Source: Escherichia coli
Lineage (GTDB): Bacteria; Pseudomonadota; Gammaproteobacteria; Enterobacterales; Enterobacteriaceae
Assembly: GCF_003334335.1 (NCBI RefSeq)
Contig: NZ_QOWQ01000001.1
DNA: 64,000 nt
Direction: 5' to 3' (one strand)
Shown here: positions 30,001 through 33,000 of the stretch, piece by piece
Layout of the letters: each line of letters starts with the position of its first letter
Numbering within the stretch: position 1 is the stretch's first letter
Position numbers: made by a program

Positions 30001-33000
30001 CGTCGACATCGTGCTTTGTTTCAGTAAATTGCCACCGTTATGGATTGGTGCAGCGTCTTCTGCCAGCGCCGCTTCTGGCGTGGTGATAACGGGTAATTCT
30101 TGCCACTCAATGCTGACCAATTGCGCCGCTTTTTCTGCCGTGAGTTCATCGCGGGCCACGACGATGGCAACGGCGTCACCATGATGACGAACATGGCGAG
30201 TTAGCAGTGCGCGATCGGCGGTATCGCGCTTGTTTTCGTCAAGTGTCCAGGCATGCCCAGCTGTAGCGAATGGAATATCAGGCACATCTTCCCAGGTAAA
30301 AATCGCCAGTACGCCCGGCAAACTTCTGGCTTGTTCATCATTAATACTTACGGCATAACCATGTGCGATAGGGCTACGTACATATTTCGCATAACACATG
30401 CCCGCCATAACATAATCGTCAGTATATCGTGCCCGCCCGGTGACCTTAGCAATGGCATCGACGCGCATGCATGATTCACCCGTAGCGGTTGCTTCCCGCG
30501 CTTCCATAGAAATCCCCTCGATTTGAACATTTGGTTCTTATGGCAAAGATTTAGTCTAAGCAGGCAAGATTTACGCCAGAAACGACGATAAGCGTTAGGG
30601 GAGGTAGGAAGTGTGATGACGTTAAAAAAACACAGATATGATACGAAACAGGACTCTGAATAGGGGCAGTGATACGTATCAATATGAGTGGCGATAAAAT
30701 CAATGTGATAAATTGGGATTATTACGCATCAGGATGGGAAATAGGGTAAAAAGTCAGGAAGTTCGATACCTCTACAGCGAATATTTTGCTGATGATACTT
30801 CCCTTTGCCAAATGAAATTAACCTCTTTCTCTATTACCACGTTTTTCCAGAAGCAAGAGATTGGGTATCAAGAGGCTGGCTGCTATGATAAGGCGTCTTG
30901 TTTTTTAAGCGAGGAAAGATTTTGAGTGCGGGACGCCTGAATAAAAAATCTCTGGGTATCGTGATGTTGTTATCGGTTGGACTGCTTTTGGCGGGCTGTT
31001 CGGGTAGCAAATCATCCGATACAGGAACGTATTCCGGCTCCGTTTACACCGTGAAACGGGGGGATACGCTATATCGTATTTCGCGCACCACGGGAACCAG
31101 CGTAAAAGAACTGGCGCGACTGAACGGCATTTCCCCCCCTTACACCATTGAAGTTGGTCAGAAACTAAAACTGGGTGGGGCGAAAAGTAGCAGTATTACA
31201 CGTAAATCAACCGCCAAATCAACGACCAAAACCGCATCGGTTACACCGTCATCAGCGGTACCGAAATCATCCTGGCCGCCAGTAGGGCAACGTTGTTGGT
31301 TATGGCCAACGACAGGGAAAGTTATCATGCCGTATTCGACAGCAGATGGCGGCAATAAAGGGATTGATATCTCAGCTCCACGGGGTACACCTATTTACGC
31401 CGCGGGTGCAGGAAAGGTGGTGTATGTGGGCAACCAGCTGCGTGGCTACGGTAATCTCATCATGATTAAACACAGTGAAGATTACATTACGGCTTACGCC
31501 CATAATGACACGATGCTGGTAAATAATGGGCAAAGCGTGAAGGCTGGGCAAAAAATCGCCACTATGGGGAGCACGGATGCGGCATCTGTTCGCCTGCATT
31601 TCCAGATTCGTTACCGTGCAACGGCAATTGATCCGCTACGTTACTTGCCGCCTCAGGGCAGCAAGCCAAAATGCTGATGGCGAATTAATCAGCAGTCAGC
31701 AGCGTGGCACTTGCTAAGGAGAGCGTAAGGTTTATAATGCCTTACGCATCTCGAAGCGGGCGTAGTTCAATGGTAGAACGAGAGCTTCCCAAGCTCTATA
31801 CGAGGGTTCGATTCCCTTCGCCCGCTCCAATTTATCTTCGCCGTAATACTTCCCCATTTTGTTGTAAATAAAAAGCGTTTACGCAATGCAATCCTTTTGT
31901 AACAACCCAGGTAAAACACCTTATTTTCAAGTTGTTAAATAAGTGGTTATCTACGCTTTTAACAAACGATTGATGGAATATTTTATGAAAGGGAAATCTG
32001 CATTAACTCTTCTGCTCGCTGGTATATTTTCGTGCGGCACATGCCAGGCGACAGGGGCAGAAGTGACGAGTGAATCTGTATTTAACATTCTTAATTCCAC
32101 GGGGGCAGCAACAGATAAAAGTTATTTATCGTTAAATCCAGATAAGTATCCTAATTATCGTCTTCTGATTCACTCAGCCAAATTACAAAATGAAATAAAG
32201 AGCCACTATACCAAAGACGAAATTCAAGGATTGCTAACATTAACAGAAAACACACGAAAGTTAACGTTGACGGAGAAACCCTGGGGAACGTTTATTCTTG
32301 CTTCTACTTTCGAAGATGACAAAACAGCGGCAGAAACCCACTATGATGCTGTCTGGTTGAGGGATAGTTTATGGGGCTATATGGCATTAGTATCAGATCA
32401 GGGAAATAGTGTAGCCGCAAAAAAGGTTCTGCTCACCCTGTGGGATTATATGTCTACGCCCGACCAGATTAAGCGGATGCAGGACGTCATTAGCAACCCA
32501 AAACGACTGGATGGAATTCCCGTGCAAATGAATGCTGTGCATATCCGATTTGACAGCAACTCCCCCGTGATGGCAGATGTGCAGGAAGAAGGCAAGCCGC
32601 AGCTGTGGAACCATAAACAAAATGATGCTTTAGGTCTTTACCTTGATCTCCTTATACAAGCAATCAACACTGGTACTATTAACGCTGAAGATTGGCAAAA
32701 AGGTGACCGATTAAAGTCGGTTGCGCTGCTGATTGCTTATCTGGATAAAGCCAATTTCTATGTTATGGAAGATTCCTGAGCATGGGAAGAAGATGCCCGA
32801 TTAAACACATCTTCCGTTGCACTGGTGACCTCTGGACTGGAACGTTTGTCAAACCTACTCTCGAAGAAAGACTCTGTTTTTGTCTCTGATTTACTACGCG
32901 AAGCTAAAGTCAATGAACTGGATGAAACTCTTTCAACAACGAGGTTGAACCACCTCATAGATAAAGGTTATGAAAGAATAACGTTACAGCTTGATTTAGG

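What the first reader, a model, noticed from the sequence alone, without database searches (positions are those of the whole stretch)
30562..30581. Better-matching sigma-54-like elements upstream of xdhA and of ygfK
On the minus strand, CTGGCGT-aaatc-TTGCC lies about 95 nt upstream of xdhA with correct GG-to-GC spacing. A similar TGGCAA-gagtg-GTGCG lies about 85 nt upstream of ygfK (plus-strand 14835-14851). If real, ygeV could coordinate xdhABC and the ygfK-ssnA-ygfM-xdhD operon as well as ygeW. Matches this loose are expected by chance several times in 64 kb, so this is a hypothesis only.
Basis: inference. Interest (0 to 1): 0.35.

Follow-up and report, generated by a model that had tools for sequence, protein, structure and literature searches.

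The report
Known sigma-54 promoters of xdhA, ygfK
The two flagged sequences lie at published sigma-54 promoters of the E. coli purine/uric-acid breakdown gene cluster: the xdhA one is exactly right, the ygfK one is 9 bases off the conserved promoter, so the finding is real but already known.

Summary
The window is the E. coli xdhABC–ygeV–ygeWXY–ygfK purine/urate catabolism cluster, reversed relative to K-12.

**xdhA element.** CTGGCGTAAATCTTGCC (30563-30579, minus strand) is letter-for-letter sigma-54 ChIP-seq site OS29 of Bonocora et al. 2015. It is also the promoter predicted by Zhao et al. 2010. It is the best sigma-54 matrix match in the window (15.7 bits) and is kept in 10 of 10 species that have xdhA.

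**ygfK element.** It exists only in E. coli. An overlapping element 9 bp downstream, GTGGTGCGATTGTTGCT (14826-14842; Bonocora OS31), scores 14.4 bits and is kept in 52 of 53 species. That is the likely promoter.

**YgeV coordination.** This idea is already published as the YgeV iModulon.

**Not found in the held papers.** All sigma-54 promoters examined beside ygeV share a conserved upstream palindrome, TATCA-N3-TGA(T/G)A: 106 exact copies in 132 orthologous regions against 0.2 in shuffles. CRP-like sites lie between the palindrome and the -24 element. The palindrome is probably the YgeV enhancer site.

Verdict: real but already known, with one mis-registered element.

The parts
30563..30579 (-). 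xdhA sigma-54 -24/-12 promoter element, CTGGCGTAAATCTTGCC. Predicted transcription start is about 30552.
   Evidence: It scores 15.66 bits, the top hit of the window. It is identical to Bonocora 2015 ChIP-seq site OS29 and to the Zhao 2010 predicted promoter. CTGGCGTA-N4-TTGCY is kept in 10 of 10 species, with only the spacer varying.
30698..30710 (-). xdhA upstream palindrome 1, TATCACATTGATT. Candidate YgeV enhancer site, centred 133 bp upstream of the promoter-motif centre.
   Evidence: Conserved block in the alignment of 10 species. Pattern searches.
30677..30689 (+). xdhA upstream palindrome 2, TATCAATATGAGT as read on the plus strand. It lies 21 bp from palindrome 1 and 112 bp upstream of the promoter-motif centre.
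   Evidence: It is nearly identical to the ygeW and ygfT/uacT copies (TATCAATATGAGA).
30612..30627 (.). Conserved T-tract plus CATCACA between the palindromes and the -24 element. It is a weak CRP-like site (TGTGATGACGTTAAAA, 2 mismatches to TGTGA-N6-TCACA), centred 48.5 bp upstream of the motif centre.
   Evidence: CATCACA is invariant in 10 species. CRP pattern match. On its own the match is no better than chance.
14826..14842 (-). ygfK sigma-54 -24/-12 promoter element in the conserved register, GTGGTGCGATTGTTGCT. Predicted transcription start is about 14815.
   Evidence: It scores 14.39 bits, rank 3 in the window. It is Bonocora site OS31, fold above threshold 26. It is the best hit in 52 of 53 orthologous ygfK upstream regions, median 15.1 bits.
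14835..14851 (-). It overlaps the conserved element, and its '-12' GTGC is part of the real -24 block. Probably not the functional element.
   Evidence: It scores 8.99 bits, with 36 such matches expected by chance. It is present only in the two E. coli genomes (9.0 and 6.9 bits) and scores below 0 in 50 other species.
15011..15023 (.). ygfK upstream palindrome, TATCATAATGATA (exact match). Candidate YgeV enhancer site, 183 bp upstream of the promoter-motif centre. A weaker second copy, ACTGATTTTGAGA, lies at 14991-15003, 20 bp away.
   Evidence: Present in 51 of 52 species at 162-184 bp in most of them.
14905..14920 (.). CRP-like site 1 upstream of ygfK, TGTGAATGAACTCACA. It is the only perfect TGTGA-N6-TCACA core in the window, centred 78.5 bp upstream of the motif centre.
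   Evidence: Pattern match. Conserved in the 21-species alignment.
14875..14890 (.). CRP-like site 2 upstream of ygfK, TGTGAGGCGGCTCGAA (2 mismatches). It lies 30 bp from site 1 and 48.5 bp upstream of the motif centre.
   Evidence: Pattern match. The TCACA and TTTCGA/TTTAGA halves are conserved.
24642..24658 (-). ygeW sigma-54 -24/-12 promoter element, CTGGCACACTTATTGTT.
   Evidence: It scores 13.45 bits, rank 6 in the window. It is Bonocora site OS30. It is conserved in about 70 species.
24859..24871 (-). ygeV-ygeW intergenic palindrome, TATCAATATGAGA (exact match). Candidate YgeV enhancer site, 215 bp upstream of the ygeW promoter-motif centre and 162 bp from the ygeV ATG.
   Evidence: Present in the ygeV-ygeW intergenic region of 63 of 63 species.
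24701..24716 (.). CRP-like site upstream of ygeW, TGTGGGGTTGATCACA (1 mismatch), centred 58.5 bp upstream of the motif centre.
   Evidence: Pattern match. GTGAY-N5-TCNCA is conserved in the alignment. A native Crp site in this intergenic region is mentioned in PMC12507026.
25027..26805 (+). [quoted passage not shown] Domains: PAS, AAA+ sigma-54 interaction domain, Fis-type helix-turn-helix.
   Evidence: Pfam scan: Sigma54_activat at residues 272-439 (E = 2e-70), HTH_8 at 548-587, PAS at 162-206. RefSeq annotation.

Best explanation
These are the sigma-54 (RpoN) promoters of two operons of the E. coli anaerobic purine/urate catabolism cluster.

**Shown (published data plus conservation here).** RNA polymerase carrying sigma-54 sits as a closed complex on CTGGCGTAAATCTTGCC upstream of xdhABC.

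**Inferred.** The closed complex stays inactive until the enhancer-binding ATPase YgeV remodels it. YgeV is encoded between the two operons. It most likely binds the conserved palindromes TATCA-N3-TGA(T/G)A that lie 110-215 bp upstream of each promoter. At xdhA and ygfK these occur in pairs 20-21 bp apart. CRP-like sites lie between the palindromes and the -24 element. They probably bend the DNA and tie expression to carbon status, doing the job IHF does at many other sigma-54 promoters.
For: - **Identity with published sites.** The xdhA 17-mer equals ChIP-seq site OS29, which EcoCyc lists as a confirmed promoter. The ygfK conserved 17-mer equals OS31. Both genes rise on sigma-54 over-expression and fall in an rpoN deletion: xdhA 4.9x and 2.1x, ygfK 2.1x and 2.4x.
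- **Matrix ranks.** The xdhA, ygfK and ygeW elements rank 1, 3 and 6 in the whole window.
- **Conservation.** xdhA 10 of 10 species, ygfK 52 of 53, ygeW about 70. At xdhA and ygfK the high-information positions (GG, TGC) are kept in 100% of species while spacer positions vary.
- **Activator.** YgeV has a full enhancer-binding-protein architecture. Its helix-turn-helix segment LGIG(I/V)ATLYRKIKKY is nearly invariant from Escherichia to Vibrio and Betaproteobacteria, while the preceding linker is hypervariable.
- **Palindrome.** It appears upstream of xdhA, ygfK, ygeW and in the ygfT/uacT intergenic region. There are 106 exact copies in 132 orthologous regions against 0.2 in shuffles. It is present in the ygeV-ygeW intergenic region of 63 of 63 species.
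- **Co-expression.** These operons form the YgeV iModulon, and ygfT expression is reduced in a ygeV mutant, as cited in PMC10602906.
- **CRP-like sites.** They are conserved at 48.5, 58.5 and 78.5 bp from the promoter-motif centres, steps of 10 bp that keep them on the same helical face. No IHF consensus is present in these regions.
Against: - On sequence alone the xdhA score is expected 0.8 times per 64 kb. A 15.15-bit match inside lysA is not in the published ChIP tables, so matrix score does not prove binding.
- ChIP-seq resolution cannot separate two registers 9 bp apart, and I found no mapped transcription start site.
- No experiment I could read shows YgeV binding DNA or YgeV dependence of xdhA or ygfK. 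A 2026 massively parallel reporter study got no consistent footprints for YgeV-iModulon promoters.
- The orthologous regions are related by descent, so the shuffle comparison overstates independence.
- The xdhA CRP-like site is weak (2 mismatches, chance level).
- NtrC in vitro selection gave a peak inside the xdh operon, between xdhB and xdhC.
Confidence: 0.8

Rival explanations
1. The reader's (Zhao 2010) register CTGGCAAGAGTGGTGCG is the functional ygfK -24/-12 element. Alternatively, E. coli uses both overlapping registers.
For: It has correct GG/GC spacing and a better -24 half (TGGCA) than the conserved register. Zhao et al. chose it. The ChIP-seq peak covers both registers.
Against: It scores 8.99 bits against 14.39 bits. 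It is absent in 50 of 52 species, while the other register is kept in 52 of 53. In a second E. coli genome (L002) it carries a substitution (6.9 bits) while the other register is unchanged. Its centre lies 27 bp from the ChIP peak centre, against 18 bp for the conserved register.
Confidence: 0.06
2. Sigma-54 holoenzyme binds these sites but they are never productively activated. The operons are really transcribed from sigma-70 promoters, with CRP as the main activator.
For: Bonocora et al. stress that binding is not the same as promoter activity. The rpoN effects in arrays are modest at about 2-fold. Strong CRP-like sites are present. Zhao et al. note that 14% of sigma-54 genes can also be transcribed by sigma-70 polymerase.
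Against: The -24/-12 blocks are conserved, with variable spacers, across more than 50 species and several orders, together with a conserved enhancer-like palindrome and a syntenic activator gene. This is hard to explain without function. The CRP-like centres, at roughly -67 to -98 from the predicted sigma-54 start, are not placed relative to any sigma-70 promoter I identified.
Confidence: 0.07
3. The promoters are real, but the activator is another enhancer-binding protein such as NtrC, or the palindrome is bound by a different transcription factor and not by YgeV.
For: NtrC in vitro selection gave a peak between xdhB and xdhC. The sigma-54 promoter inside yqeC in the same cluster is induced by nitrogen limitation. 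The ygfK palindrome TATCATAATGATA loosely resembles Fur-box hexamers (my own reading). No YgeV-DNA binding data exist in the held literature.
Against: The palindrome is unlike the NtrC site (TGCACC-N5-GGTGCA, from my own knowledge). The yqeC-internal promoter lacks the palindrome, and so does the aegA region, so the motif tracks the operons beside ygeV. ygeV is the only regulator gene syntenic with the cluster in 63 species. In other species the centre of the palindrome varies away from Fur-like sequence.
Confidence: 0.12

Closest known systems
Published E. coli K-12 sigma-54 promoters xdhAp and ygfKp (Zhao, Liu & Burgess 2010, PMC2831329; Bonocora et al. 2015 sites OS29 and OS31, PMC4591121; listed in EcoCyc as confirmed and predicted respectively)
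   Same: The xdhA 17-mer is identical to OS29 and to the Zhao prediction. The conserved register is identical to OS31.
   Different: Nothing differs for xdhA. For ygfK the two papers disagree by 9 bp. My conservation analysis sides with Bonocora.
YgeV iModulon / putative YgeV regulon (Lamoureux et al. 2023, PMC10602906)
   Same: It covers the same operons (xdhABC, ygeWXY-hyuA, ygfK-ssnA-ygfM-xdhD, ygfT, uacT) and makes the same proposal that YgeV activates them from sigma-54 promoters.
   Different: That work rests on co-expression only and gives no binding site. Here a conserved palindrome, TATCA-N3-TGA(T/G)A, is proposed as the site.
NtrC-glnAp2, the archetypal enhancer-dependent sigma-54 promoter (established knowledge)
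   Same: A -24 GG / -12 GC promoter, a closed complex that needs an AAA+ activator with a Fis-type helix-turn-helix, and paired palindromic enhancer sites more than 100 bp upstream.
   Different: The activator has a different sensory module: PAS, with no receiver domain. The palindrome differs. CRP-like sites replace an IHF site between enhancer and promoter.
prpBCDE promoter: sigma-54 with PrpR, and with CRP-dependent catabolite control (recalled from the literature, not read here)
   Same: A catabolic operon read from a sigma-54 promoter, with a divergently encoded dedicated activator and cAMP-CRP input.
   Different: prp uses IHF, and its CRP site arrangement is not known to me in detail. 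Here CRP involvement is inferred from sequence, plus one mention of a native Crp site between ygeV and ygeW.

Membership tests
Sigma-54 (RpoN) -24/-12 promoter | GG and GC dinucleotides 10 bp apart within YTGGCACG-N4-TTGCW | tested here: met
   Both reader elements and the conserved ygfK element have GG at positions 3-4 and GC at positions 15-16 of the 17-mer.
Sigma-54 (RpoN) -24/-12 promoter | Matrix score within the range of ChIP-verified sites (training range 7.2-19.8 bits, 10th percentile 11.7, median 14.3) | tested here: met
xdhA scores 15.66 and the conserved ygfK register 14.39. For that element this feature is not met.
Sigma-54 (RpoN) -24/-12 promoter | Conservation of the -24 and -12 blocks in orthologous upstream regions, with free variation in the spacer | tested here: met
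xdhA 10 of 10 species, ygfK 52 of 53, ygeW about 70. At xdhA and ygfK, high-information positions are 100% conserved against 71-86% for low-information positions.
Sigma-54 (RpoN) -24/-12 promoter | In vivo occupancy by sigma-54 and rpoN-dependent expression | not testable with these tools
   Taken from papers. ChIP-seq peaks OS29 (fold above threshold 11) and OS31 (26) in PMC4591121. Array changes on sigma-54 over-expression and rpoN deletion in PMC2831329.
Sigma-54 (RpoN) -24/-12 promoter | Transcription start about 11-13 nt downstream of the -12 GC | not tested
   No start-site data were available to me. Predicted starts are about 30552 (xdhA) and about 14815 (ygfK), using the rule of 19 bp from the motif centre given.
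Sigma-54 (RpoN) -24/-12 promoter | A cognate enhancer-binding protein with upstream enhancer sites | tested here: inconclusive
   ygeV encodes a complete enhancer-binding protein. Conserved palindromes lie 110-215 bp upstream of each promoter. Binding of YgeV to them has not been shown.
YgeV regulon | Expression depends on ygeV | not testable with these tools
   Only ygfT is reported as reduced in a ygeV mutant (Iwadate & Kato 2019, as cited; the paper is not held). xdhA and ygfK are linked by co-expression only.
YgeV regulon | A cis-element shared by all member promoters and co-conserved with ygeV | tested here: met
   TATCA-N3-TGA(T/G)A is found at xdhA (two copies), ygfK, ygeW and ygfT/uacT. 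There are 106 exact copies in 132 regions against 0.2 in shuffles. It is present in 63 of 63 ygeV-ygeW intergenic regions. It is absent at the yqeC-internal promoter and at aegA.
CRP-modulated promoter | A TGTGA-N6-TCACA site, conserved in orthologs | tested here: inconclusive
   ygfK has a perfect core, ygeW has 1 mismatch and xdhA has 2 mismatches. The blocks are conserved in the alignments. The overall count in the window is at chance (27 against 29.6 expected), and CRP binding was not tested.

The most novel reading that the evidence does not exclude
The 13-bp palindrome TATCA-N3-TGA(T/G)A is the so far undefined DNA-binding site of the enhancer-binding protein YgeV. Together with phased CRP sites it defines a conserved control module for anaerobic urate/purine breakdown: enhancer, then CRP-induced bend, then sigma-54 promoter. 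The module is shared by the xdhA, ygeW, ygfK and ygfT/uacT promoters from Enterobacterales to Vibrionaceae, Aeromonas, Shewanella and some Betaproteobacteria. I found no description of this site in the held literature. It may exist in papers or databases that I could not search.
Probability: 0.6. Interest if true: 0.4.

Novelty: already known. Interest (0 to 1): 0.15.

Why it matters
The cluster encodes the gut-bacterial anaerobic urate/purine degradation pathway, now linked to host uric-acid balance and gout. How it is switched on matters for physiology and for engineered probiotics; one group has already replaced the ygeV-ygeW regulatory region to force expression.

The sigma-54 promoters themselves are not new. 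Two results here are useful. First, two published assignments of the ygfK promoter disagree by 9 bp, and conservation favours the Bonocora 2015 one. Second, the candidate YgeV enhancer palindrome and the CRP-like sites can be tested directly. A recent reporter screen failed to find footprints for these promoters.

Tried and rejected
- **IHF as the bending protein.** There is no WATCAANNNNTTR match in any of the three regulatory regions, and the window total is at chance.
- **aegA as a further regulon member.** aegA is a ygfT paralog needed for urate use, with a sigma-54 site 870 bp upstream inside narQ. No palindrome occurs anywhere in the 8 kb examined.
- **The sigma-54 promoter inside yqeC, which drives yqeB, as a YgeV target.** It has no palindrome within 550 bp upstream. 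It is reported as induced by nitrogen limitation, so a different activator is likely.
- **A second palindrome next to the ygeV start (24957-24969) as a conserved autoregulatory site.** It is not conserved at that position in other genera.
- **Covariation between the YgeV recognition helix and the palindrome arms.** The helix is essentially invariant. The I/V variant does not track TATCA against TCTCA arms cleanly, so I can claim only co-conservation, not covariation.
- **Reading the primary papers on YgeV and the original promoter predictions.** Iwadate & Kato 2019, Xi et al. 2000 and Reitzer & Schneider 2001 are not held.
- **Sequence-only significance.** The whole-window matrix statistics do not make either reader element significant by themselves.
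Full report
**What the window is.** The region around the finding matches more than 5,400 complete E. coli genomes at 95% identity or better. RefSeq annotation of an identical strain gives the gene order actS, xdhABC, ygeV (opposite strand), ygeW-dpaL(ygeX)-ygeY-hyuA-arcC, yqeB-yqeC (opposite strand), mocA, ygfK-ssnA-ygfM, followed by xdhD. The window is reversed relative to K-12, so these operons read on the minus strand:
- xdhA 28210-30507
- ygeV 25027-26805 (plus strand)
- ygeW 23361-24548
- ygfK 11655-14753

This cluster carries the anaerobic urate/purine degradation genes studied recently in gut bacteria.

**Checking the observation.**
- The minus strand at 30579->30563 reads CTGGCGTAAATCTTGCC. 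Its 3' end is 95 nt from the K-12 xdhA start codon.
- The minus strand at 14851->14835 reads CTGGCAAGAGTGGTGCG, 82 nt from the ygfK start codon.
- Both have the correct GG-to-GC spacing.

I built a position weight matrix from the 135 ChIP-seq-associated sigma-54 motifs printed in Bonocora et al. 2015, leaving out the five that belong to this cluster. I scanned both strands of the window with it.

| Element | Window position (strand) | Score (bits) | Rank in window |
|---|---|---|---|
| xdhA | 30563-30579 (-) | 15.66 | 1 |
| ygfK, overlapping register GTGGTGCGATTGTTGCT | 14826-14842 (-) | 14.39 | 3 |
| ygeW, CTGGCACACTTATTGTT | 24642-24658 (-) | 13.45 | 6 |

The median score of the training sites is 14.3 bits.

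Dinucleotide-preserving shuffles give 0.8 hits at or above 15.66 bits, 2.0 at or above 14.39, and 36 at or above 8.99 per 64 kb. The second-best hit in the window, 15.15 bits inside lysA, does not appear in the published ChIP tables.

**What is already published.**
- The xdhA 17-mer is letter-for-letter ChIP-seq site OS29 of Bonocora et al. 2015. That site has fold above threshold 11, lies 84 nt from xdhA, and is flagged as an experimentally confirmed promoter in EcoCyc.
- The same table lists sites upstream of ygeW (OS30), ygfK (OS31, fold above threshold 26) and ygfT (OS32).
- The same paper gives array data. xdhA rose 4.9-fold on sigma-54 over-expression and fell 2.1-fold in an rpoN deletion. 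ygfK changed 2.1-fold and 2.4-fold.
- Bonocora et al. state that xdhA and ygfK are among only five of Zhao's 22 candidates that ChIP-seq confirmed.
- Lamoureux et al. 2023 published the idea that YgeV coordinates these operons. They describe a YgeV iModulon and cite reduced ygfT expression in a ygeV mutant. Its members, as listed in a later paper, include xdhABC, ygeWXY, hyuA, ygfK, ssnA, ygfM, xdhD, ygfT and uacT.

The finding is therefore not new.

**Which ygfK register is real.** The two papers disagree by 9 bp, and ChIP-seq cannot resolve that. I fetched 80 loci from other species using YgeY as a probe with 10-kb flanks. I located orthologs of the cluster genes and scanned the 350 bp upstream of each ygfK, xdhA and ygeW ortholog with the matrix.
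- **ygfK.** In 52 of 53 ygfK upstream regions the best hit is the ortholog of GTGGTGCGATTGTTGCT. Its form is YTGG(C/T)NNG-N3-GTTGCT and its median score is 15.1 bits. It usually lies 55-85 nt (at most 119 nt) from the start codon.
At 9 bp upstream it scores 9.0 in E. coli and 6.9 in a second E. coli genome. It scores below zero in all 50 other species, including Citrobacter. Its apparent -12 element GTGC is simply part of the true -24 block.
- **xdhA.** CTGGCGTA-N4-TTGCY is kept in all 10 species that carry xdhA in the fetched stretch, with eight different 17-mers that differ only in the spacer and the last base.
- **Positional pattern.** At xdhA and ygfK the five high-information positions (GG, TGC) are 100% conserved, against 71-86% for the low-information positions. 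At ygeW the figures are 91% and 68%. This pattern is expected if selection acts on sigma-54 binding.
- Bonocora's own supplementary conservation table agrees for the few species they examined.

**Upstream architecture.** Alignments of the upstream regions show conserved blocks that recur at all three promoters.

*The palindrome.* The clearest block is a 13-bp palindrome, TATCA-N3-TGA(T/G)A.

| Promoter | Copies and position | Distance from promoter-motif centre |
|---|---|---|
| xdhA | 30698-30710 and 30677-30689, 21 bp apart | 133 and 112 bp |
| ygfK | 15011-15023 (exact), plus a weaker copy at 14991-15003, 20 bp away | 183 bp |
| ygeV-ygeW intergenic | 24859-24871 (exact), with weaker neighbours | 215 bp |
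| ygfT-uacT intergenic (outside the window) | same 13-mer, TATCAATATGAGA, at L082 11036-11048 | - |

The support for the palindrome is as follows:
- With at most one mismatch to TATCA-N3-TGATA, the window has 8 matches against 2.4 expected. Four of the 8 lie in these three regulatory regions.
- Across species the palindrome is present upstream of xdhA in 10 of 10, of ygfK in 51 of 52, and of ygeW in 61 of 70. The distances are conserved while the central three bases vary.
- There are 106 exact copies in 132 regions, against 0.2 in dinucleotide shuffles of the same regions.
- It occurs in the ygeV-ygeW intergenic region of all 63 species where the two genes are divergent neighbours.

*YgeV.* The protein has a PAS domain, a sigma-54 AAA+ domain and a Fis-type helix-turn-helix. 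The helix-turn-helix segment LGIG(I/V)ATLYRKIKKY is almost invariant across these species, while the preceding linker is hypervariable.

I infer that the palindrome is the YgeV enhancer site. I found no paper in the held library that defines it. A 2026 reporter study says the YgeV-iModulon promoters gave no consistent footprints.

*CRP-like sites.* These lie between the palindromes and each -24 element.
- ygfK has TGTGAATGAACTCACA at 14905-14920, the only perfect core in the window. A second, weaker site lies 30 bp downstream.
- ygeW has TGTGGGGTTGATCACA at 24701-24716.
- xdhA has a weak half-site, with an invariant CATCACA and a T-tract, at 30612-30627.
- Their centres lie 48.5, 58.5 and 78.5 bp from the promoter-motif centres. 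These are 10-bp steps, so they sit on one face of the helix.
- No IHF consensus is present.
- A native Crp site in the ygeV-ygeW intergenic region is mentioned by a group that replaced it to de-repress the pathway.

CRP binding and its role as the bending element are inference.

**Mechanism.**
- *Shown* by published data plus conservation here: sigma-54 holoenzyme occupies the xdhA and ygfK promoters.
- *Inferred:* YgeV assembles on the paired palindromes. It contacts the closed complex by DNA looping, helped by CRP-induced bending, and uses ATP hydrolysis to open the promoter. The ygeW and ygfT/uacT promoters are co-regulated in the same way.
- *Unknown from this work:* the signal sensed by the YgeV N-terminal and PAS region.

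**Rivals.**
- The Zhao/reader register could still be used in E. coli alone. I give this about 6%.
- The sites could be bound but unproductive, with sigma-70/CRP transcription doing the work. I give this about 7%, because deep conservation of promoter, enhancer and activator argues against it.
- Another activator, or another protein on the palindrome, is possible. I give this about 12%. NtrC in vitro selection gave a peak between xdhB and xdhC, and the sigma-54 promoter inside yqeC that drives yqeB responds to nitrogen limitation. That promoter lacks the palindrome, as does aegA.

**Verdict.** The xdhA element is real and exactly the known xdhA sigma-54 promoter. The ygfK element is a published but probably mis-registered call, and the real promoter overlaps it 9 bp downstream. 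The YgeV coordination hypothesis is reasonable and already in print. The finding itself is of low interest. The candidate YgeV enhancer palindrome and the phased CRP sites are a modest lead that can be tested.

Noticed in passing
window 24751-24762 (minus strand): CCAAACGTTTTC, inside GCCAAACGTTTTCGT, resembles a PurR operator (consensus recalled as GCAAACGTTTTC). It lies in the ygeV-ygeW intergenic region, between the palindrome and the CRP-like site. It is conserved in Escherichia, Citrobacter and Trabulsiella, and more loosely in Pluralibacter, Atlantibacter and C. freundii, but not in more distant genera.
   Followed up: partly
window 16157-16173 (plus strand), inside yqeC: TGAGCACGAACCTTGCA is the published intragenic sigma-54 promoter that drives yqeB (Bonocora site IS34, validated by mutation). 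It has no TATCA-N3-TGAKA palindrome upstream. It does have a 1-mismatch CRP-like site at 16098-16113, 59.5 bp from the motif centre, the same geometry as at ygeW.
   Followed up: partly
L082 10854-10870 (minus), 11036-11048 and 11158-11174 (plus); just beyond the left end of the window: The ygfT-uacT intergenic region holds three elements. One is the weak published ygfT sigma-54 motif (5.2 bits). The second is an exact copy of the palindrome, TATCAATATGAGA. The third is a weak sigma-54-like element facing uacT, CTGGCACTCCACGAGCA (6.6 bits, correct GG/GC spacing). uacT is in the YgeV iModulon but has no site in the ChIP tables I could search.
   Followed up: partly
window 60030-60046 and 59368-59384 (plus strand), inside the 420-aa ORF 58788-60050 (lysA, by my reading of gene order): Two strong sigma-54 matrix matches, CTGGCGCTGGAATTGCT (15.15 bits) and CTGGCGTTGATTATGCC (13.63 bits), lie in the sense orientation inside a gene. 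lysA is absent from the published ChIP tables that I could search. They may be chance matches or weak unlisted sites.
   Followed up: partly
window 33797-33826, both strands: Two overlapping, convergent sigma-54 matrix matches of 13.35 and 13.52 bits lie at the start of an ORF in the type III secretion (ETT2) part of the window. I did not check whether K-12 keeps this stretch or whether ChIP data cover it.
   Followed up: no
L084 about 937-1705, equivalent to window about 30765: Some E. coli strains carry an IS1 between actS and xdhA. It is inserted at GAGGTATCG, about 55 bp upstream of the first xdhA palindrome. The enhancer and promoter remain intact, but upstream sequence is displaced.
   Followed up: yes
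window 14927-14946 and about 14795-14812 (minus strand): Two further conserved blocks of unknown role lie around the ygfK promoter. AGTGATTTTAATTCTCATTT sits between the palindrome and CRP-like site 1. A CCG(C/T)CGG block sits just downstream of the -12 element, at the start of the predicted 5' UTR.
   Followed up: no
L001 20994-23291 and 36748-39846: In E. coli strain 300709, xdhA and ygfK are both annotated as pseudogenes with internal stops. The corresponding ORFs in the window are intact at 765 and 1032 aa.
   Followed up: no
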